Position numbers and translations under genes: made by a program | In this document: positions 12,730 through 48,944 of the stretch, in pieces | Numbering within the stretch: position 1 is the stretch's first letter | Layout: every line of letters starts with the position of its first letter | The notes under the pieces: model-generated | What the model saw: only the letters and a program-made list of their open reading frames with translations | What the model was told of the DNA's origin: nothing | The model's database searches: none | Source: Eledone cirrhosa | Lineage: Eukaryota | Assembly (NCBI GenBank): GCA_964016885.1 | Contig: OZ024752.1 | Span: 22,506,001-22,570,000 of the forward strand | DNA length: 64,000 bases | Reading direction: 5' to 3'

Positions 12730-13700
12730 TCCTCATTACCGTTTAACGTCCATGTTTCCACACTGGCATGGGTTAGATGGATGCCTTTCCTAGTGCCAAC
12801 TTCAAATACAGTGAGTATTGGGTGCTTTTTGCTGTGATGTCTACACGACCACTTTACAGTGTGGGCTGGGTACTTTTTGCAGTGACACCTACACGACCAC
12901 TTTACAGTGTGGGCTGGGTACTTCTTGCAGTGACACCTGCACGACCACTTTACAGTGTGGGCTGGGTACTTTTTGCAGTGACACCTACACGACCACTTTA
13001 CAGTGTGGGCTGGGTACTTCTTGCAGTGACACCTACACGACCACTTTACAGTGTGGGCTGGGTACTTTTTGCAGTGACACCTACACGACCACTTTACAGT
13101 GTGGGCTGTGTACTTTTTGCAGTGACACCTACACGACCACTTTACAGTGTGGGCTGTGTACTTTTTGCAGTGACACCTACACGACCACTTTACAGTGTGG
13201 GCTGGGTACTTTTTGCAGTGACACCTACACGACCACTTTACAGTGTGGGCTGGGTACATTTTGCAGTGACACCTACACGACCACTTTACAGTGTGGGCTG
13301 GGTACTTCTTGCAGTGACACCTACACGACCACTTTACAGTGTGGACTGGGTACTTTTTGCAGTGACACCTACACGACCACTTTACAGTGTGGACTGGGTA
13401 CTTTTTGCAGTGACACCTACACGACCACTTTACAGTGTGGGCTGGAGGCTTCACTGGATGTATACTTCTGCTTGTCCTCATGGAAGATGTACATATATGC
13501 TTCAGTCTTGGTCTGTGCCCTTTGGAAGTCTGGTCTTCTGTAATACTGCGTAACACCAGAGATCTCGGTCATGTGTCATCGCCTTTGAGAGGTGCAATTG
13601 GGCAAGGTCCAGCTTTTATCACCTCGTCTCAAGCCTTCCTGGGTCGCCCCACTCCATGGCTTCCATACACTTTGAGAGCTCTGCACTTTTTTATACAGCT
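12728..13700 (-). mobile_element. RTE LINE 3' end with internally amplified 3'UTR
   Basis: Minus strand 13700-13530 encodes a decayed RTE C-terminus (GRPRKA*DEVIKA...[14 protein letters not shown]). The end at 12728 matches the termini at 39910-39960 and 46098-46160. Confidence 0.8.
12843..13445. repeat. 48-bp tandem minisatellite, about 13 copies
   Basis: Unit acacgaccactttacagtgtgggctgggtactttttgcagtgacacct, starting at 12843, 12891, 12939 and so on to 13419. Confidence 0.97.
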
Positions 13701-17300: not shown

Positions 17301-18020
17301 CTGGGTGCATTTATCATGGCCCCAGCACTACACTTTACAACATGGACTGGGTGCATTTTATTATGGCACCAGCACTACACTTTACAACATGAACTGGGTG
17401 CATTTTATCATGGCACCAGCACTACACTTTACAACATGAACTGGGTGCATTTTATCATGGCCCCAGCACTACACTTTACAACATGGACTGGGTGCATTTT
17501 ATCATGGCTCCAGCACTACACTTTACAACATGGACTGGGTGTATTTTATCATGGCCCCAGCACTACACTTTACAACATGGACTGGATGCATTTTATCATG
17601 GCACCAGCACTACACTTTACAACATGGACTGGGTGCATTTTATCATGGCACCAGCACTACACTTTACAACATGGACTGGATGCATTTTATCATGGCACCA
17701 GCACTACACTTTACAACATGGACTGGGTGTATTTTATCATGGCCCCAGCACTACACTTTACAACATGGACTGGATGCATTTTATCATGGCACCAGCACTA
17801 CACTTTACAACATGGACTGGGTGTATTTTATCATGGCCCCAGCACTACACTTTACAACATGGACTGGGTGTATTTTATCATGGCCCCAGCACTACACTTT
17901 ACAACATGGACTGGATGTATTTTATCATGGCCCCAGCACTACACTTTACAACATGGACTGGGTGTATTTTATCATGGCCCCAGCACTACACTTTACAATA
18001 TGGACTGGGTGTATTTTATG
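17301..18020. repeat. 47-bp tandem minisatellite, about 15 copies
   Basis: Unit ctgggtg[c/t]attttatcatggc[c/a]ccagcactacactttacaacatgga with period 47. Confidence 0.97.
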
Positions 18021-18386
18021 ACATAAGCACTACTGCTTTACTGAAAGTTGTGTGCATTTTATTGTGACACCAGCACTGGGGTAATTTTTGTATTTAGCAG
18101 GATAGAAACAGGCAGCGTGGGGGGGGGGGGTGAGAGTATGGTGCAAGTAGCATTGTGGAATGGGTAGCAATGGCTTCTATATGTTACTTGCTGAGAAAGA
18201 AGGAAAGAAAGTGGGAAGAGATGTTTGGATCATGGAGGTGTCCTTGAAGAGAAGGAAAGTGATGACTAACATCATCTCTTGAGGGGAGATGGGGTAAAGG
18301 TTGTAAAGTGATACACAGCATAGCATCTTAGGCAAGTGTCATTTACCATAAATTGAAAGAAATAATCCATTTTGTTTTGCTAACAC

Positions 18387-23699: not shown

Positions 23700-24076
23700 T
23701 ATAACGAAGATTACGTGTCGCTGGAGATATTCAATTTATTGATTCAGAAGACAATGACAAAAACGACATAATCCGTGATAACAAAAATTCATTTTTATTT
23801 GTTGTACAAATATGGAATCGAAAATAACAAGAGAAGGTTGAGCAAGTCTTCACATCGTGTTGGCTGCATGGACGTCTTGATGCTGGTCGTTCAGTGAACT
23901 CTCTCTGTGTCTCTCTGCCTGTCAGCCAACTGTGTCTCTGGTCCCGCAACTTGTCTCGATCCGCTGAGGGCCCTGATTGGCTACTTCAGCCAATTCACCT
24001 CTGTGACACCATTCTTTCGCCAAAGGAAAATACATTTAACCGCAAAGGAAAATATATAATAATTCTGTTCACTACA
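23700..24076 (-). repeat. 3' LTR of element A
   Basis: Direct repeat of 33052-33417. The minus strand begins TGTAGTGAAC and ends CGTTATA. Confidence 0.93.
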
Positions 24077-24305
24077 GTACCCTCCGTTTAGATCGAAGAT
24101 CGATATCAATACATGAGTAGTGCAAAATATGCAATATGTCTACATGACATCAAACAATAAAAAATCATCGGGTACACTGAGAAAAAATACATGTATGAAT
24201 ACAACCAAGAGAAATGAAACAACATAATTGAACAAGCAAAAGTAATTGTTTACATAAGAGTCAAAAGTTTGAACAATATCACAGTTCATATATAGATTGT
24301 TTTAC

Positions 24306-27300
24306 TCAATCTCTGAGGCCAATGTACTCTAAGACCACTACGTGTCGTCGTAACACATGTGGGTGAAGGTGATGAAGGTGTGGGTGATGTTGTGGGTGAG
24401 TATGCTTGTGAAGATTCAACATGCAATGTATTGTATGTGGGGGGGGGGGTGTATGGGGTTCAACTGGTGGAGCGTCTGTAAAGGCCTGTTTAATCCTATC
24501 TACAGAAACTGTGTTTCCTACCACAAATGTCTATGGTAAAAAGTTTGTCTGTTTTTGCCAGGACACGGTAGGATCCTGTATAGGGTGGCACAAGTGGTCC
24601 TTTCACCGAGTCTTTACGTAGAAAAACGTGAGTCCAAGAAGTAATGTTTTTAGGAACCGAAGATTTAATCGTCTGTTGACGTGTTCCCATAGGCGGAAGA
24701 TCGTTGAAATATGATTGCAAACAGTTAATATATAACGTCGGATCTTCCAGCGATGCGTCGACTGGGACTAACATCTGTCCCGTCAATGATAAAGGTGTTC
24801 CGTACAGCAATTCCGATGGGGAATATCCGAGATCCTCCCTGACCGCCGCGCAACAGCCAAGAAGAACAATTGGTAGATATTCACTCCATTTTTGCTGGTC
24901 GGGATAAGCACGCAATGCTGCTTTTAATTGGCGATGAAAGCGCTCTATCATGCCATTTGACGCCGGGTGGTAACTAATAGTTCTAATCCGACGTATCCCT
25001 AAGATTTTAGAAAGTTCATGGAAGAGATGTGATTCAAATTGTCCACCACGGTCAGTGGTGATCGTGGAAGAGACACCGTATCGCGAAATCCAGCCGGACA
25101 TCAGAGCTCGTGCTACCGATTCTGCTGAAATCTCTTCGAGAGGAATGGCTTCAGGCCAACGTGTATACGGTCGATACACGTAAGAAGATATGTATATCCA
25201 TGACTGACCGGCCAAGGTCCAACTAGGTCGATATGAATATGGTAAAAGCGGGCATCAGGAGTGTTGAATGTGCCCAGAGGTGCTCGAATATGTTTGTGCA
25301 CCTTAGACTTCTGGCAAGGTATGCAGGAACGAGACCATGCAGTGATATCTCGTCTCATATTTGGCCAAAAGAATCTGGCCGTAATGAGTTTATAACAGCG
25401 ACGCTGGGTTGTATGAATATAACAAGACACTCGGTTGTATGTACAATGTTTATTTAACAAGGTTGAGCTATGTAGAGCAGAATAGTTAACATGCCAAGAG
25501 GGATGAAAGAATGAATTAAATTTATTTGTTTACCATTTTGAAGTCAGTGCGCATTAGAAATAGAGGTCTTTACATTACCATGTTCAGGTTGCCAGAGAGT
25601 ATACCCTCTGGCAGAACGCGCCTGGCTGAAGGGCCAGGCAGGTTAAAAAAGATGGAGATAGTTTTGAGTTCTCTCCTTTATAGGGTCCCTGGACGGAAGT
25701 GACAAAGAAGGCTCTGCAACTTCAACGGGAAGTAACTCCAGCTACTTCCTGTCTAGAGAACGCTACTGGTGATGTGATCGTAACAAGGGAAGCACCTCTT
25801 GCTACATTATCTCCCGCCAGATTTTTAAAACATAAAAATCGAATCAACCATATATGAAGTAAGATGGCGAGCATGTAACACCAAAGTCCAGGCATGAAAA
25901 TTACAAAAAAATAATGTAATGTAGCAAGAGTTGCCTCCCTTGTTACGATCACATCACCAGTAGCGCTCTCTAGACAGAAAGTAGCTGGAGTTACTTCCCG
26001 TTGAGGTTGCAGAGCCTTCTTTGTCACTTCCGTCCAGGGACCCTATATGGGAGAGAGCTCAAAGCTATCTCCCTCTCTTTTAACCTGCCTGGCCCTTCGG
26101 CCAGGCGCGTTCTGCCAGAGGGTATACTCTCTGGCAACCTGAACATGGTAATGTAAAGACCTCTATTTATAATGCGCGCTGACTTCAAAACGGTAAACAA
26201 ATAACTTTAATTCATTCTTTCATCCCTCTTGGCATGTCAACTATTCTGCTCTACATAGCTCAACCTTGTTAAATAAACATTGTACATACAACCGAGTGAC
26301 TTGTTATATTCATACAATCCAGTGTCGCTGTTATAATTGGTGACCCCGACGTGATCGTAACAAGGGAGGCAACTTTTGCTACAAGTTTCATTGATGAATG
26401 GATTCCAGGGTGTGAGAGGTTATGTAACATGTCGAAAACTGTTCGCCGATGAAGCTCCGGAACGAAAGGTCGAGGCGAATCAGTCGACATGTCACACAGG
26501 ATGCTTGTGTCAGAATTGTGTACAGGTAATTGTTTGAATTTGCACGTCGCAAATTCGGTTGCAGATAAATCCAATTCGTCCAAAGCAGGATGGTCATCAG
26601 CGAGCAAACGTAGATCAATATCCGTTTTTGTCGATAGTGAGTTGACAGGTAAACGAGATAATGCATCTGCCGCTAAATTCTGTGATCCAGGAATATGGCG
26701 TATATCACTAGTGAATTGTGATACATAATCTAAATGTCGAGTTTCACGTGGCGAGTATCTTTCGGGTTTCGCTTTGAGAGCAAATGTCAAAGGACGATGG
26801 TCCGAGAAGATCGTAAACTGGCGTCCTTCCAACGAATGCTGGAGGTGTTTGATTGCCAAATACATCGCTAACAGTTCTCTGCCGAAAGTACTGTATCGGG
26901 TTTCAGCGGGTTTAAGCTGTTTTGAGAAATATGCAAGTGGTTGTTGCATCTTCTGGTTGTGGTACTGCTGCAAAACTGCACCTACTGCTGTGCCTGATGC
27001 ATCAACGACCAGTGAAAACTGGGCATTAGGTACAGGATGTGCAAGCAGGGTGACATCAGCTAATTCCTGTTTCACTCTGCTATAAGCTTCGAGTTGAGCA
27101 GGGACTAAAGAAATAGATTCGTTTTTCTTTTTTCGATTCCGCAACAGTTCAGAAAGAGGTGCTATGCGCTCAGCACAATGTGGAATAAATCGACGGTAAT
27201 AATTTAGCAGTCCCAAGAACTGACGTAATTGACGTTATGATGTAGGAGGAGGTAATTCCTGAAGAGCTTTCACTTTATCCGGTGGAGGTGATATGCCTGT

Positions 27301-28430
27301 AGGACTAATGATGTGTCCTAGAAAAACTAGCGAAGACGCACCAAATATACACTTCGCGGGGTTAATGCGAACTTGGTACTTCTTAAACCGTTGAAATAAC
27401 AAACGAAGGTGTTTAACTTGTTCCTCTGGAGATGTGCTAGCAACGAGTACGTCGTCTATATAGCACTAAACAAAATCCAGGTCTCTGGTGATTTCGTCCA
27501 TGAAGCGTTGAAAGGTACTAGCGGCGTTGCGTAGACTAAAGGGCATCGTTAGGAACTCAAAAGCACCAAAGGGTGTAGTGATAGCAGTCTTCGGAATATC
27601 CGCTGGATTAAGTGGCATCTGATGATACGCTCAGACTAAATCCAGTTTAGAAAAAACTGTGCATCCATGTAAGGAAGAAGCAAAATCCTGAATGTGTGGG
27701 ATTGGGTAGCGATCGGGTACAGTCATCGAGTTTAATCGGCGAAAGTCCCCAGTCGGACGCCAATCGCCGGAATGCTTTGGAACCAAATGCAAAGGAGAGG
27801 CCCACAGACTGGAGGAATGGCGTATGATCCCCAGCATGTGGTTAAATTCAGCCTTCGCCGCTTTCAATTTTTCCGCAGGGAGTCGGCGAGGGCATGAAAA
27901 TACAGGAGCGCCAGAAGTTTCGATATAATGTTTTGTGGAGTGAGTAGGCTTGCTCACCACAAAATTCAAATTTGTCAATTCCGGGAAGGAATTTAGAAGC
28001 GACTGAAAAGGGTCCTCTGAAGCGGCGATGAAGAATACCGGGCAGATAGATGAGACAGTAGATTTCAAATCCGGAACGGAGAGTTCCGTATTAGCATCCA
28101 ACAACCGGCGTCTGCGCATATCCACTAAGAGGTTATAGTGGTGCAGGAAATCCGAGCCTAGAATAGGGTAAGGAAAATCCGCGACCTTGAAAATCCACGT
28201 GAAGTCTCTTTGCAATTCAAAGAATGAGAAATTTGACCATACGTGGAGATAGGACAATGATTTACGGCTTGCAGAGAAATAGATGAAACTGGCGGCTTCT
28301 CTTTGAGAAGTTTTAGCGGCCATATGCTGCAAGCAGCACCTGTATCCACCAGACATCGTGCTTGGGAAAACGTGTCAGTTATGAAGAACGCACGATTATT
28401 TGGGAGTGTCAGAGGAGACTGTGCCGTGCT
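24306..28430 (-). pseudogene. pol: pol of element A (protease-RT-RNaseH-integrase), disrupted
   Basis: [79 protein letters not shown] and a GPY/F-like end. It has stops and frameshifts and is split by the insertion at 25391-26383. Confidence 0.92.
25391..26383 (-). mobile_element. Miniature non-autonomous LTR element 'B' (TRIM-like) with inverted 5' LTR, nested in the integrase of A
   Basis: TSD AGTT at 25387-25390 and 26384-26387. Two 416-bp LTR copies (25391-25806, 25920-26335) lie in opposite orientation. The 113-bp interior ends in PPT aaaatctggcgggagataa. PBS at 26338-26356. Confidence 0.88.
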
Positions 28431-29226
28431 CAGGTCTCCTGAAATTCGTTTCCCTGGTTGGAAAAGGAACAGGGCTGTCTACAACAGCGTGCCGCCGCGC
28501 CAAAACGGCTGTGATAGTAGCACAGTCCTGGTTTGTTTGTGTGGCAGCGGCGTGGCGAGGGCGAACGGCTCTGTAGACGACGTCTGGGCGATTGAGCCCT
28601 GGATAAACTCAATTTTCTCACCTCTTTGATGAGTTGTGCTATGGCTTGAAGAATTGCCGTAGACGTGAGCGACTGATCGGTGTGAACGGCAGCCGCTGGA
28701 GAGAACGAAGAAACCTCAGTCAGTGGCTGAGGTGTAGCGAAGGAAGCTGGCTTTCCTGTGAAACTCATAATTTTGTCCGCCGAAGACGCCAGTTGCTCGA
28801 CTGAACTAGTCTCCATCATAGGCGCCAATATCGCCTGGACATTGGGCGGCAGCCTCGAAAAGAAAAGCTGTCACATGAGGGTGCTATCAGCTGGAGCGTC
28901 CTCCGCCAGTTCTTTCAGCCGACGCAGGAACTGGCTCGGCGTCCGATCACCCAAATGCTCGTCATTTACTAGCGTTTGAAACCTCCTCTCTGCGGACAAC
29001 GTGGTACGCCGCAGCACCTCGCGCTTAACGCTCTCATAGGTGGCTCCAGGGGCCGGATCAGTAATCAGATCCTTAAGCACTGTCGTTAAAGACGCCGGAT
29101 AGCACTCAAAAGAATATGTAGTTGTCTGTCTTCGGACGTTATGCCATTCGCAGCAAAATACGATTCAATCTGGGCGCACTAGACACAGACGTCGCCTGCA
29201 AAAGCTGGCAATGAAGTGCTACCCAT
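28430..29226 (-). pseudogene. gag: gag of element A, disrupted
   Basis: MGSTSLPAF...AQIESYFAANGIT...LGDRTPSQFLRRLKEL...FFSRLPPNVQAIL...CYYHSRFGAAARCCRQPC (C-X2-H-X9-C-X3-C). Internal stops are present. Confidence 0.88.
28448..28454 (-). promoter_or_regulatory. Putative -1 ribosomal frameshift heptamer GGGAAAC at the gag/pol overlap
   Basis: Minus strand cagGGAAACgaa lies just before the gag stop and fits the X XXY YYZ pattern. Confidence 0.6.
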
Positions 29227-29238
29227 CGTGAATAAAGG

Positions 29239-32200
29239 TGTAGAAGATCACATCGGGGTCACCATGCCTGTGGGCATCTCCATTACATATGGTGCCAAAA
29301 TCTCCTGGCGATTGGAGACCCACAGGGGATTACAGACGATTGAACTCGATGACCGTACCGGATCGGTATCCTATCCCTCATCTGCAGGAATTTTCATCCT
29401 CGTTGCAAGGTTGTAACATTTTTTCGAAACTCGATTTGATACGAGCCTACAACCAGATTCCTGTCAACAGAGACGACATCCCGAAAACGGCTATAACTAC
29501 GCCATTTGGATCTTTTGAATTTCTCACCATGCCTTTCGGGTTAAGAAATGCTACTAGCACCTTCCAGCGATTTATGGATGAGGTCACTCGCGGCCTCGAT
29601 TTTGTATACACATATATTGATGATCTTCTTGTTGCTAGCTCTTCTCAGAGCAACATTTGCGCCATCTGGATCTTCTGTTTTGTCGTTTGAGTGATTACAA
29701 TGTTCGGATTAATCCATCAAAATGTGTTTTTGGTTCCGAATCTCTGAATTTTTTGGGCCACGTCATTGACTCTGACGGTATTCGACCTATTCCTGAGAGA
29801 GTTAAAGCTATAGAGGATTTGCCTCCACCAACCTCACTCCGTCAGTTGCGCAAATTCTTGGGGCTGATTAATTTTTATAGGCGGTTTGTGCCTAATTGTG
29901 CTAAGCTACTCTTCTCTTTGATGGAAATTTTGAAAAATTGCCGAAAGAAAAATAAAGACATTTCTTTGAATGAAACTCAGCTCGAGGATTTTGAGAATGC
30001 GAAAATTGCTCTAGCCAATGCATCTTTGCTGGCTCACCCAGTGTCCAATGTTAAGCTTTCGCTTTGTGTTGATGCGTCGGATACTGCCGTGGGCGCAGTT
30101 TTGCAACAAAGTAGGAACGATCAACAGCAACCGTTGGAATTTTTTTCCAGAAAGCTGAAACCTGCCGAAACCCGCTACAGCACCTTTGGACGGGAGTTGC
30201 TAGCTATATACTTATCGGTGAAGCATTTTTCGCACATGTTTGATGGAAGAACGTTCACCATCTTTTCAGACCACAAGCCGTTGACATTCGCCTTGCAAGC
30301 AAAGGCCGACAAATACTCGCCCAGAGAAACTAAACATCTCGACCTCATCTCTCAATTTACTAATGATATTCAACATATTCCGGGTTCTATGAATACAGCG
30401 GCCGACGCCCTGTCTCGTTTGCCGATTGCTTCGATCTCGTCGTCCGATGACATAGATTTGAATCGCTTGGCAGCCGATCAGCCTACCCTCGAATCGTTGT
30501 ATCGCCTGAATTTGTGAATTGCAGGATCAAATACCACCATTATCGACTGCAGACGGACGGATCCTCTGCGACGTCTCTTTGGATGCGCCACGCCCTTTTG
30601 TTCCGTTGAACCATCGTCGAACTGTGTTTCTTGTTTTACACGGCATTTCACATCCAGGATCTTCTGCCACAGTAAAACTCATAACGGCTAAATTCTTCTG
30701 GACAAATATGAGACGTGATATTACTGTTTGGTGCCGTTCCTGTGTTGCTTGCCAGAAATCAAAAGTTCACAGGCATGTTAAGACTCCTCTAGGTACTTTT
30801 AGTAACCCGGACGCTCGGTTTCGCCACATTCATGTGGACATCGTGGGACCTTGGCCAATCAGCGGTGGTCATAATTACATATTGACTGTTATCGATCGTT
30901 TTTCGCGATGGCCTGAAGCCATCCCCTTGAAAGATATCACTGCTGAGACGACAGCGCATGCCCTTGTGTCTGGATGGATCGCTCGATATGGAGTATCAAC
31001 GTCAATTACCACGGACCGTGGAAGGCAGTTTGAATCGAATCTCTTCCATGAATTAACGAAAATCATCGGCGCTAAACGCATCCGAACGACTGCATATCAT
31101 CCTGCCTCTAATGGAATGGTGGAGATCTTCCACCGACAACTAAAAGCCGCTCTATGGACTTCTCCTGGCTCTACGCGGTGGAGCGAGTACCTCCCTATTG
31201 TGTTGTTGGGGATTCGGTCAACAATAAAGGAGGACCTTGGGTTCTCCCCGGCCGAATTATTATATGGTTCTCCTCTAGCGTTACCTGGGTAAATGCTTGC
31301 CCCTGTCGATGTTGCTGCACAGGATCCGCTTTCCTACGTATCCCGTCTGCGTTCCTATTTTCAGGACCTGCCGCCGATGGATACGAGGAAGCAAACTATA
31401 AAATCTGCAGTCCCGAGGGATATTGCCCCGTGGACCCATGTGTTCGTGAGAAACGATGCTGTGAGACCACCTCTCACACAACCGTACTCTGGACCCTACC
31501 GTGTATTAGCTCGTTCCGAGAAACATTTCACTGTAGACATTAAGGGTTCCAGAGAGACGGTTTCTATTGATCGACTCAAACGAGCACATTTGGACACAGA
31601 CGCTATCACACCTGAGCCACACACCTGCTTCTCCCCCCCTCCCCCCAATCACCAAGATATAAGACTACCACCCGTTCCGGTCGGAGAGTTCATTGGCCCC
31701 AAAAACTGTGTAGCACTGTATATTTTTAAGCTGCGATTGTGCGGCGCTTTAATCCTGTATTTTCTATTTGAACTATTTGAACTTTTAAAAATTGTATTTA
31801 CATTTTATTATAATTTTTTTCTAGCATGCTTGTTTCATATGTTCCTTTGAAATTTGTTGTGCCCTTCATGCTCGGTTGGGCTGATTGCTCCTTGGTTTGA
31901 GGTTTTTGCTAGTTGCTCATCGTTTTGCTACATACATGGTCCGATGAACCGATTTTTATTTCTTTTTCTAAAAATCTGGTGGGAGGCCATGTAGAAGATC
32001 ACGTCGGGGTCACCACTTCAGGAGAGATGGTCACCATTTTTAACTGCCCTTAGTTCTGACGTCAGTAGCTGAATACACTCTCTTTTCAACTTGGTGTGTT
32101 GATGCGAGCAGACGCATTTCACGGTGGAGAAACAGCGATATCACACCATGCGGTCACGGGATAATTGAACACCACCACTTAATGATAATTACGAATTACC

Positions 32201-32417
32201 AATCAAGGAACAACTGATATGATAACCTGTTTTTTTTATTGCTCTGATTAAAATGCTCATGTACATATAATCTCGAGGTATGTTCTTTTTGCTTAATTGT
32301 TTACCTACACTTAACAACAAATAGAAGAGATGTCCTAGCAGCCAAGCTAGGGAAACGAACTCCCCTCTAAATCGTAAAACAACGCAGCCTTCTAAAATGG
32401 TGACCATCTCTCCTAAA
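29239..32417 (+). mobile_element. CsRn1-type Gypsy element 'C', internally deleted, nested antisense in the 5'UTR of A
   Basis: TSD AAGG at 29235-29238 and 32418-32421. It has a 26-bp 5' LTR stub (29239-29264), pol from the RT start, PPT ggtgggaggcca and a 3' LTR at 31990-32417. Confidence 0.87.
29265..31720 (+). pseudogene. pol: pol (RT-RNaseH-integrase) of element C, frameshifted
   Basis: ORFs 29289-29690, 29657-30517, 30519-31292 and 31293-31850 give [34 protein letters not shown] and YSGPYRV. Confidence 0.93.
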
Positions 32418-33030
32418 AAGGTATGCCAGTAAGCAATAGAGAACAACAGGGAAAATGCAGGCCAAAAGAAATCCAAGAGAAAAGAAAAATATAAAATAAA
32501 AACAATGATATTTTCTTTCGTTGTTGAAGAGATAAATGTTAAGAATACAAAAAAAAATGTTTCTTTTCTTTCATATTTTTCAAAATGGCGTTGCCCTAAA
32601 GTCAATTTGGCGGGAAAAAGAACGAAGAAGACGGAAGTCGGCCATTATGAGCTCTCTGGAAATGAAAGCAAAAATCCTTCCTTTTTTTTTTTTTTTTAAT
32701 GGCGTCACCCAATCAGAATTTGGGCGGGAAACATGAATTTTGAAGAAGACAGCAGGCGCCATGATGGGTTTCCGATTCAATATTTATATTTCGAGACAGT
32801 AAAAAAACAAATACCATAACTCACCCGAGAAATCCATATGAATTTTGATTCTTTTTTTATTTTTTATATCATCTATTTCGATCGAGCTGCTGCTATATGT
32901 GTCCATCAGAGAGAAAACATTTTGTTGTACATAATTTTCTTGTTATCGTGTCCAAATTTTTTTTTTTTTTTTTTTAGTATAAAGTAAATCCGTATCACCA
33001 TTTATTATGTAGAGTGGTAAGTGGCATGTT

Positions 33031-33049
33031 GATCACTTCGGGGTCACCA
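33031..33049 (-). promoter_or_regulatory. Primer binding site of A, complementary to the tRNA-Trp 3' end
   Basis: TGGTGACCCCGAAGTGATC lies two nt after the 5' LTR. Eukaryotic tRNA-Trp ends ...ATCACGTCGGGGTCACCA. Confidence 0.9.
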
Positions 33050-33051
33050 TT

Positions 33052-33417
33052 TATAACGAAGATTACGTGTCGCTGGAGATATTAAATTTATTGATTCAGA
33101 AGGCAATGACAAAAACGTTATAACAAAAATTCCCTTTTATTTGTTGTACAAATATGGAATCGAAAATAACAAGAGAAGGTTGAGCAAGTCTTCACATCGT
33201 GTTGGCTGATTGGACGTCTTGATGCTGGTCGTTCAGTGAACTCTCTCTGTGTCTCTCTGCCTGTCAGCCAACTGTGTCTCTGGTCCAAGTAGTCCCGCAA
33301 CTTGTCTCGATCCCTGATTGGCTACTTCAGCCAATTCACCTCTGTGACACTATTCTTTCGCCAAAGGAAAATACATTTAATCACAAAGGAAAATATATAA
33401 TAATTCTGTTCACTACA
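33052..33417 (-). repeat. 5' LTR of element A
   Basis: Direct repeat of 23700-24076, followed by the PBS. Confidence 0.93.

Positions 33418-47289: not shown

Positions 47290-48944
<1,655 letters not shown>

What the first reader, a model, noticed from the sequence alone, without database searches (positions are those of the whole stretch)
25391..26383. Mini LTR element whose 5' LTR+PBS is an inverted-repeat-bounded cassette that has flipped
Seen: the segment 25920-26383 starts TGTAGCAAGAGTTGCCTCCCTTGTTAC-GATCACATCACCA and ends TGGTGACCCCGACGTGATC-GTAACAAGGGAGGCAACTTTTGCTACA. So the PBS is followed by a 27-nt reverse complement of the LTR start. The cassette is oriented opposite to the PPT and 3' LTR, yet the whole 993 bp has a clean AGTT TSD. 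Inferred: plus-strand strong-stop DNA can snap back (anti-PBS on PBS) and copy its own 5' end, giving a panhandle that can join in either orientation. I know of no description of this.
Basis: partly seen in the sequence, partly recalled or inferred. Interest (0 to 1): 0.8.

Follow-up and report, generated by a model that had tools for sequence, protein, structure and literature searches.

The report
Fold-back retrotransposon copy with rebuilt end
This 993-base jumping-gene copy has one terminal repeat upside down, most likely because its DNA copy folded back during reverse transcription, copied 18 bases of its tRNA primer and jumped to the start of the repeat, which rebuilt an end that could be inserted; about a dozen other copies in the genome carry the same joint.

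Summary
The anatomy is real: two sister LTRs 95% alike in inverted orientation, a PBS followed by a reverse copy of the LTR start, and an AGTT target duplication. It is not a family trait or a switchable cassette. The arm occurs once in the genome. Normal family-B copies have direct LTRs, a 12-nt PBS and about 1.4 kb inside. Here the PBS is a full 18-nt tRNA-Trp copy ending just before tRNA base 58, and its last five bases (GTGAT) match ATCAC near the LTR start. Best reading: the minus strand folded back 111 nt past the 3' LTR, recopied the LTR and the attached tRNA, then jumped onto U3 and ran to the LTR tip, giving integrase a second proper end. I found 12 such capped ends genome-wide, 8 with matching 4-bp duplications; none lies in the 'unflipped' orientation. 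Two further copies show the same jump running on into the PPT and pol, which marks the jumping strand as the minus strand. It is a recurrent reverse-transcription accident of CsRn1-like gypsy elements. My literature searches did not find it described. The assembly at this locus was not confirmed by reads.

The parts
25387..25390 (.). Left target-site duplication AGTT
   Evidence: an empty-site form with these borders is seen in contigs of sample S2
25391..25806 (-). 3' LTR of family B (TGT...ATA); its U5 tip is the element's left end
25807..25818 (-). Polypurine tract
   Evidence: same position in normal copies
25807..25917 (-). Last 111 nt of the family-B interior (includes the PPT); the rest of the roughly 1.4-kb interior is absent
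25911..25919 (+). Joint 1 (fold-back): 7-nt match ATAATGT shared by the interior and the PPT/U3 border, with a 5-nt duplication
25920..26335 (+). Second copy of the same LTR, inverted relative to the 3' LTR; sister of it in the tree
   Evidence: support 100/96; 4 shared columns seen in 0 of 42 other copies
25948..25952 (+). ATCAC motif in U3 (LTR bases 29-33), the landing site of joint 2
26338..26355 (+). 18-nt copy of the tRNA-Trp 3' end (family norm is 12 nt); C at 26350 fits the tRNA, not U3
26356..26383 (+). Cap: reverse complement of LTR bases 1-28, ending exactly at the U3 tip (..TACA); the element's right end
26384..26387 (.). Right target-site duplication AGTT
23700..33417 (-). Host gypsy element (family A; gag with CHCC, RT/RNase H, integrase; TSD TGTT), interrupted by the finding and by a family-C element
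29239..32417 (+). Family-C element (TSD AAGG) whose 5' end is a U3 cap plus reversed tRNA copy joined to pol, and whose 3' LTR (31990-32417) has an inverted PBS plus U5 piece after its own ATCAC

Best explanation
This is a single inserted copy of a non-coding CsRn1-like gypsy element whose two LTRs point in opposite directions, most likely because its minus-strand DNA folded back on itself, recopied the LTR and 18 bases of the still-attached tRNA-Trp, and then jumped onto the LTR start, which would have rebuilt a second integrase end. Shown by sequence: the window's plus strand reads, 5' to 3', reversed LTR, reversed PPT, 111 nt of reversed interior, LTR in sense, 18-nt tRNA copy, reversed LTR start, all between AGTT duplications. 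Inferred steps: (1) minus-strand synthesis stalls 111 nt beyond the 3' LTR; (2) its end ATAATGT pairs with the same 7-mer at its own PPT/U3 border (a 5-nt duplication is left, cause unresolved); (3) RT copies its own strand back through U3-R-U5 into the tRNA and stops before base 58, the usual methylated stop (recalled); (4) the end GTGAT pairs with ATCAC in U3 of a plus-strand strong-stop DNA and runs to that DNA's 5' end; (5) integrase uses the natural U5 end and the rebuilt U3 end and makes a 4-bp duplication. The copy is then an inert by-product; nothing flips after insertion.
For: Arm unique to this locus. Among 49 family-B LTR/PBS joints, all 6 with an 18-nt tRNA copy are rearranged, against 1 of 43 with a 12-nt PBS; with the duplicated L080 counted once, 5 of 5 against 1 of 43, p=3.5e-6. 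Genomic tRNA-Trp genes have A at base 58, so read-through would add T, whereas the 19th base here is C, as in U3. Base 13 is C (tRNA) in the three B/D-type caps (window, L174, L152); U3 would give T in 36 of 44 family-B LTRs, none of the 44 would give C, and the family-D LTR in L034 would also give T. Same anatomy with shorter fold-backs and clean TSDs: L110 (40 bp), L174, L152. In L169 and window 31990 the same jump runs on through the PPT into pol, as a minus strand does. In L058 the 18-nt end jumped to an interior site with a 7-nt match. A family-B LTR with a family-C cap (L108) is also seen in a contig of sample S2. The two LTRs are sisters. In Ty3 the tRNA-bearing plus strand is a dead-end by-product and the PBS is not inherited from the tRNA (PMC5371799 section 6); 14 of 20 family-C joints keep a PBS with an extra T, which fits that route.
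Against: At this locus only one base (26350) separates 'copied from tRNA' from '12-nt PBS joined to reversed U3'. In family-C caps the six bases after the 12-nt PBS could come from U3 alone; the case there rests on the PBS lacking the family's extra T (2 of 2 caps against 3 of 18 others, p=0.053). The 5-nt duplication at joint 1 is not predicted by a clean fold-back. 4 of 12 capped ends have no far att end or TSD. My patterns asked for known caps or a TACA end, so att-ended products are over-sampled. Full 18-nt PBSs are normal in other families of this genome. No read set spans the inserted allele.
Confidence: 0.72

Rival explanations
1. The cassette is a plus-strand strong-stop DNA that snapped back on its own U3 (panhandle). 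Its capped end was integrated together with the U5 end of a truncated minus strand, and the two halves were joined afterwards at the ATAATGT match by host end-joining.
For: Plus-strand-type products exist: L115 and L165 are LTR + 18-nt PBS + cap with U3 tips at both ends and clean TSDs. The second LTR is preceded by AA, the last two PPT bases. A 5-nt duplication at a microhomology is typical of end-joining (recalled). The finished cassette folds into a panhandle.
Against: L110, L174, L152 and L169 have the same order of parts but restart at different points inside the LTR, which a fold-back explains and a complete strong-stop DNA does not. It needs two molecules and a repair step.
Confidence: 0.17
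2. A short element with direct LTRs and a post-PBS arm was inserted first, and the LTR+PBS segment later inverted by recombination between the 36-bp repeats.
For: The inverted repeats are real and bound the segment exactly. A snapped-back plus strand ending in the reversed U3 tip could have landed on the similar interior site.
Against: No unflipped copy among the 9 hits or the 12 capped ends; every cap faces non-element DNA. It needs a second rare event between very short repeats.
Confidence: 0.06
3. A normal copy was rearranged after insertion by host replication or repair (template switching), with no part played by the tRNA.
For: Both joints have short sequence matches; only one base at this locus is tRNA-specific.
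Against: The rearranged end stops exactly at the LTR tip against an intact TSD. The same joint recurs at 12 ends in at least three LTR families, and one joins a family-B LTR to a family-C U3.
Confidence: 0.03
4. Assembly or chimeric-read artefact.
For: No reads of the assembled individual were available; sample S2 shows only the empty site.
Against: The arms differ at 20 of 416 sites with a transition bias, unlike a read fold-back. The TSD is clean. A sibling cap joint is present in an S2 contig.
Confidence: 0.02

Closest known systems
CsRn1 clade of Ty3/gypsy elements (CsRn1, PwRn1, AgCR1-14; PMC2582038, passages read)
   Same: tRNA-Trp PBS, 4-bp TSD, LTR ends TGT...ATA or TGT...AAA, PPT, CHCC gag in families A and C.
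   Different: Family B shows no coding sign here, and this copy has inverted LTRs, an 18-nt tRNA copy and a rebuilt U3 end; the passages I read describe no such copies.
Ty3 plus-strand synthesis with PPT recycling and dead-end strong-stop DNA (PMC5371799, passages and section 6)
   Same: A tRNA-extended strand is a by-product, the genomic PBS is not corrected from the tRNA, and spare plus strands are available as jump acceptors.
   Different: Ty3 copies 12 nt of tRNA and the product is described as dead-end; here 18 nt are copied and the strand jumps on and is integrated.
Aberrant retroviral reverse transcripts: fold-back DNA, strand-transfer deletions, tRNA sequence at circle junctions (Colicelli and Goff; Olsen and Swanstrom; Pulsinelli and Temin; recalled, not read)
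   Same: Template jumps at short matches, often from the PBS end, giving inversions and deletions.
   Different: As I recall, mostly unintegrated or cultured-cell products; here they are fixed genomic insertions with TSDs and a recurrent landing motif that restores an att end.
Auto-integration inversion circles (Ty1; Arabidopsis SISYPHUS, PMC7197481, passages read)
   Same: Inverted LTR arrangement arising inside the particle.
   Different: Those are integrase-made circles that are not inserted; here both joints have RT-type matches and one carries a tRNA copy.
TRIM miniature elements and DIRS elements with inverted terminal repeats (recalled)
   Same: Small size with LTR, PBS and PPT (TRIM); inverted repeats (DIRS).
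   Different: Not an amplified family (1 copy); it has an integrase-type TSD and belongs to a normal direct-LTR family.

Membership tests
CsRn1 clade (Ty3/gypsy) | PBS for tRNA-Trp | tested here: met
   18 of 18 match to genomic tRNA-Trp(CCA) genes plus the CCA end
CsRn1 clade (Ty3/gypsy) | 4-bp target-site duplication | tested here: met
   AGTT here; 4 bp also in families A and C
CsRn1 clade (Ty3/gypsy) | LTR termini TGT...ATA or TGT...AAA | tested here: met
   B and A end in ATA, C and D in AAA; definition
CsRn1 clade (Ty3/gypsy) | CHCC (CX2HX9CX3C) gag motif | tested here: inconclusive
   Present in family A and family C; no gag was identified in family B, so B is assigned by its cis features only
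CsRn1 clade (Ty3/gypsy) | RT phylogeny with named CsRn1 members | not tested
   No reference sequences fetched; Pfam shows only RT, RNase H and integrase domains in gypsy order
TRIM (miniature LTR family) | Multiple copies of the short form with direct LTRs | tested here: not met
   Arm found once; the next LTR is in the same orientation, 0.56-2.3 kb away and mostly about 1.4 kb, in 31 of 47 loci
Invertible cassette (recombinational switch) | Both orientations present among copies or alleles | tested here: not met
   0 of 9 hits and 0 of 12 caps followed by sense interior; alleles at this site could not be tested
Separate solo-LTR insertion | Own TSD and independent LTR ancestry | tested here: not met
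   Flanks of the inner LTR do not match; the two LTRs are sisters with private shared changes
DIRS-type element | Tyrosine recombinase, no integrase-type TSD | tested here: not met
   4-bp TSD present; the coding neighbours carry rve integrase

The most novel reading that the evidence does not exclude
The ATCAC(A/G)(T/C)CACC motif kept near the U3 start of divergent LTR families is a captured, decayed copy of the primer tRNA's 3' end that acts as a built-in landing pad: any strand that has run into the tRNA can jump there and finish as an integrase-ready end, also between co-packaged families. CsRn1-like elements would then have a second, tRNA-bridged route to insertable DNA that bypasses normal second-strand transfer and that can write tRNA sequence heritably into their LTRs (window 31990 would be such a capture).
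Probability: 0.15. Interest if true: 0.72.

Novelty: new variant of a known kind. Interest (0 to 1): 0.45.

Why it matters
If the reading holds, these insertions are fossils of intermediates that are normally thrown away. They record where RT stops on the primer tRNA, that stalled minus strands fold back while the tRNA is still attached, that integrase accepts very short donors (40 bp in L110) and donors with two U3 ends (L115, L165, L150), and that a non-coding family probably shares particles with a coding one (L108). The class is not rare here: 2 of 20 family-C and 2 of 49 family-B LTR/PBS joints examined are caps. Such copies are missed by direct-LTR finders and leave long hairpins in the genome. 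It is not a new replication strategy unless the landing motif proves to be selected.

Tried and rejected
Full anti-PBS pairing as the driver: the PBS/U3 duplex is no stronger than shuffles (B 205 of 1000, C 165 of 1000), though the U3 ATCAC is the best site in each LTR with the 3' end paired. L109 and window 33009-33050 looked like caps but are the normal family-A leader; dropped. L162 is cap-like but no matching LTR start was found; not counted. L124, L160, L172, L043, L080, L143/L153/L163 are other jumps from an 18-nt PBS; not counted as caps. L034's opposite LTR is a nested family-D solo LTR. L116-L121 were not called as tRNA genes and look like read-through PBS copies; the tRNA sequence was taken from L166 and L167. 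Metagenome scan: 5 hits; L183-L186 show no matching LTR start, and L187 is suggestive but has only 104 nt upstream; no support claimed. Reads: S2 contigs show the empty site, which may be an allele or a paralogous host copy; RAD reads X5-X7 do not reach the cap. Literature: nine searches returned no description of this product. Five of them returned nothing at all; the others I saw as listings only, apart from three papers. The library lacks most older subscription papers, where related retroviral cases are likely. Additional file 1 of PMC2582038 (an image of LTR ends) was not seen and could show whether the U3 motif is clade-wide.

Full report
Observation. The 993-bp element at 25391-26383 is as described. 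It holds an LTR on the minus strand (25391-25806), a PPT and 111 nt of interior, the same LTR on the plus strand (25920-26335), a tRNA-Trp PBS (26338-26355) and a reverse complement of LTR bases 1-28 ending at the LTR tip, between AGTT duplications. It lies in the integrase region of a larger gypsy element (family A, 23700-33417, minus strand, TSD TGTT). Contigs of sample S2 show an empty site with the same borders; this may be an allele or a paralogous host copy, and it confirms the borders, not the insertion. The genome is 3.0 Gb; that it is an animal is my inference.

What the family normally looks like. The arm pattern occurs once in the genome, at this locus. An exact LTR-end+PBS pattern gave 52 joints. 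Of the 51 outside the window, 44 have a 12-nt PBS. In 47 loci with a family-B joint, the next LTR downstream is in the same orientation in 31 (mostly about 1.4 kb away), opposite in 2 and beyond the fetched DNA in 14. The two opposite cases are a nested solo LTR of family D (L034) and a multi-jump product (L058). One family-B interior examined has no stop-free stretch above 142 codons; I treat B as non-coding. So there is no mini family and no family-wide arm.

One insertion, not two. Among 44 family-B LTRs the two window LTRs are sisters (100/96), share four alignment columns found in 0 of 42 other copies, and differ by 20 substitutions. The inner LTR has no TSD of its own. A separate solo-LTR insertion is rejected, and the divergence argues against a read fold-back artefact.

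The tRNA signature. tRNA-Trp genes in this genome have A58 followed by the 15 encoded bases that, with CCA, give the 18-nt PBS. The PBS here is exactly those 18 bases, and the next base is C, as in U3, not T as read-through would give. A stop before methylated A58 is recalled knowledge. The last five bases pair with ATCAC at LTR 29-33. Among 49 family-B joints (three ending in a different spacer were left out, the window added), all 6 with an 18-nt copy are followed by rearranged sequence, against 1 of 43 with 12 nt; counting the tandem L080 pair once, p=3.5e-6. Caveat: at this locus only base 26350 distinguishes tRNA from U3 as template. It is C here and in the two family-D caps, whereas U3 would give T in 36 of 44 B LTRs and C in none. 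Other families in the genome have 18-nt PBSs as their norm.

The same joint recurs. Three pattern searches, read, gave 12 ends where a tRNA copy is followed by a reversed U3 start that stops at the LTR tip and faces non-element DNA: window 26383, window 29239, L107, L108, L110, L114, L115, L122, L127 (=L174), L152, L155 and L165. Eight have a matching 4-bp duplication next to an LTR terminus at the far end (both window cases, L107, L110, L115, L174, L152, L165). For L107 and L110 the far end rests on only 8-10 bases of U5. Four have no far end that I could find. L155 and L165 have a cap three bases short. L110, L174 and L152 read reversed U5, a turn, sense U5 end, tRNA copy, cap, which is the finding's order of parts with shorter fold-backs. 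In L169 and window 31990 the jump lands on ATCAC and runs on through the PPT into pol, which is what a minus strand does; window 29239 and 31990 may be one event. L115 and L165 are LTR + tRNA copy + cap with U3 tips at both ends, so plus-strand-type products also integrate. L150 is an LTR-PBS-reversed LTR palindrome with a TSD. L058 jumped from the 18-nt end to an interior 7-nt match. L108 is a family-B LTR with a family-C cap; no B LTR among 44 starts like C, and the same joint is in an S2 contig, which suggests shared particles. No cap is followed by sense interior. The patterns favour att-ended products, so frequencies are biased; as examined, caps are 2 of 20 family-C joints and 2 of 49 family-B joints.

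Mechanism. Read 5' to 3', the window's plus strand is what a minus-strand cDNA would be if it stalled 111 nt past the 3' LTR, folded back on the ATAATGT shared by that interior site and the PPT/U3 border, recopied the LTR and the attached tRNA, and jumped to U3 of a plus-strand strong-stop DNA, ending at its tip. The molecule then has a natural U5 end and a rebuilt U3 end. The 5-nt duplication at the first joint is unexplained and leaves room for a panhandle joined by host repair. In Ty3 the tRNA-bearing plus strand is a dead-end product and the PBS is not inherited from the tRNA (PMC5371799, passages and section 6). The 12-nt PBS of family B and the extra T in 14 of 20 family-C PBSs fit the same route and would supply spare plus strands.

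Comparison. The cis features and the CHCC gag of families A and C match the CsRn1 clade as defined in PMC2582038 (passages); no RT tree was made. Auto-integration inversions (PMC7197481, passages) differ in being integrase-made circles. Aberrant jumps from the PBS end are known for retroviruses (recalled, not read). Nine searches found no account of integrated copies with a U3 end rebuilt through a tRNA copy, but the library is thin on older work. Earlier notes of this scan describe a related inverted-LTR accident and tRNA read-through accidents in other genomes; I did not test them.

Verdict. A real structure, best read as a recurrent reverse-transcription accident that happens to restore an integrase end; not a flip switch. 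New variant of a known kind, interest 0.45. The bold reading, a selected tRNA-derived landing pad in U3, has about 15% odds.

Noticed in passing
window 29239-32417: Family-C element with a capped 5' end joined straight to pol and a 3' LTR in which about 33 nt of U3 are replaced by an inverted tRNA copy plus U5 end; such an LTR would be heritable.
   Followed up: yes
L110 (G000:C2:161000879): 40-bp insertion made only of a U5 tip, a tRNA copy and a U3 tip, with a 4-bp TSD: a very short donor, if integrase made it.
   Followed up: partly
L150 (G000:C5:58528304): LTR-PBS-reversed LTR palindrome with two U3 ends and a TSD.
   Followed up: partly
L080 (G000:C28:96240492 and 96241465): Tandem three-LTR array with a 973-bp period; each PBS is an 18-nt copy that turns back on its own start and skips most of the interior.
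   Followed up: partly
rows, e.g. G000:C1:133585240 and C1:2169292: Many PBSs run past tRNA base 58 into the T arm, often with a changed base at 58; a possible record of the tRNA modification.
   Followed up: no
family-C LTR U5, window about 32384-32395: 12-nt stretch complementary to the tRNA-Trp variable loop and T stem, followed by a second PBS-like 8-mer (duplex -22.3 kcal/mol for the L175 copy); possible extended primer pairing as in Ty1/Ty3.
   Followed up: partly
L143, L153, L163: Three copies share an 18-nt PBS followed by an inverted piece of the LTR start, so one rearranged leader seems to have been amplified.
   Followed up: no
L187 (metagenome contig), 105-158: Cap-like end whose putative U3 start carries a 16-of-18 copy of the tRNA-Trp end; too little flank to verify.
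   Followed up: partly
L173 (G000:C4:87312525-87312659): Two 18-nt PBSs facing each other about 110 bp apart, each after a similar LTR end; likely another inverted product.
   Followed up: no
G000:C4:353.39-353.49 Mb: Tandem cluster of tRNA-Trp genes (about 30 pattern hits; three confirmed in L166).
   Followed up: partly
window 12807-13445 and 17301-18077: Tandem arrays with 48-bp and about 94-bp periods.
   Followed up: no
window 48055-48567 (minus): Open frame with repeated C2H2 zinc-finger motifs (read by eye).
   Followed up: no
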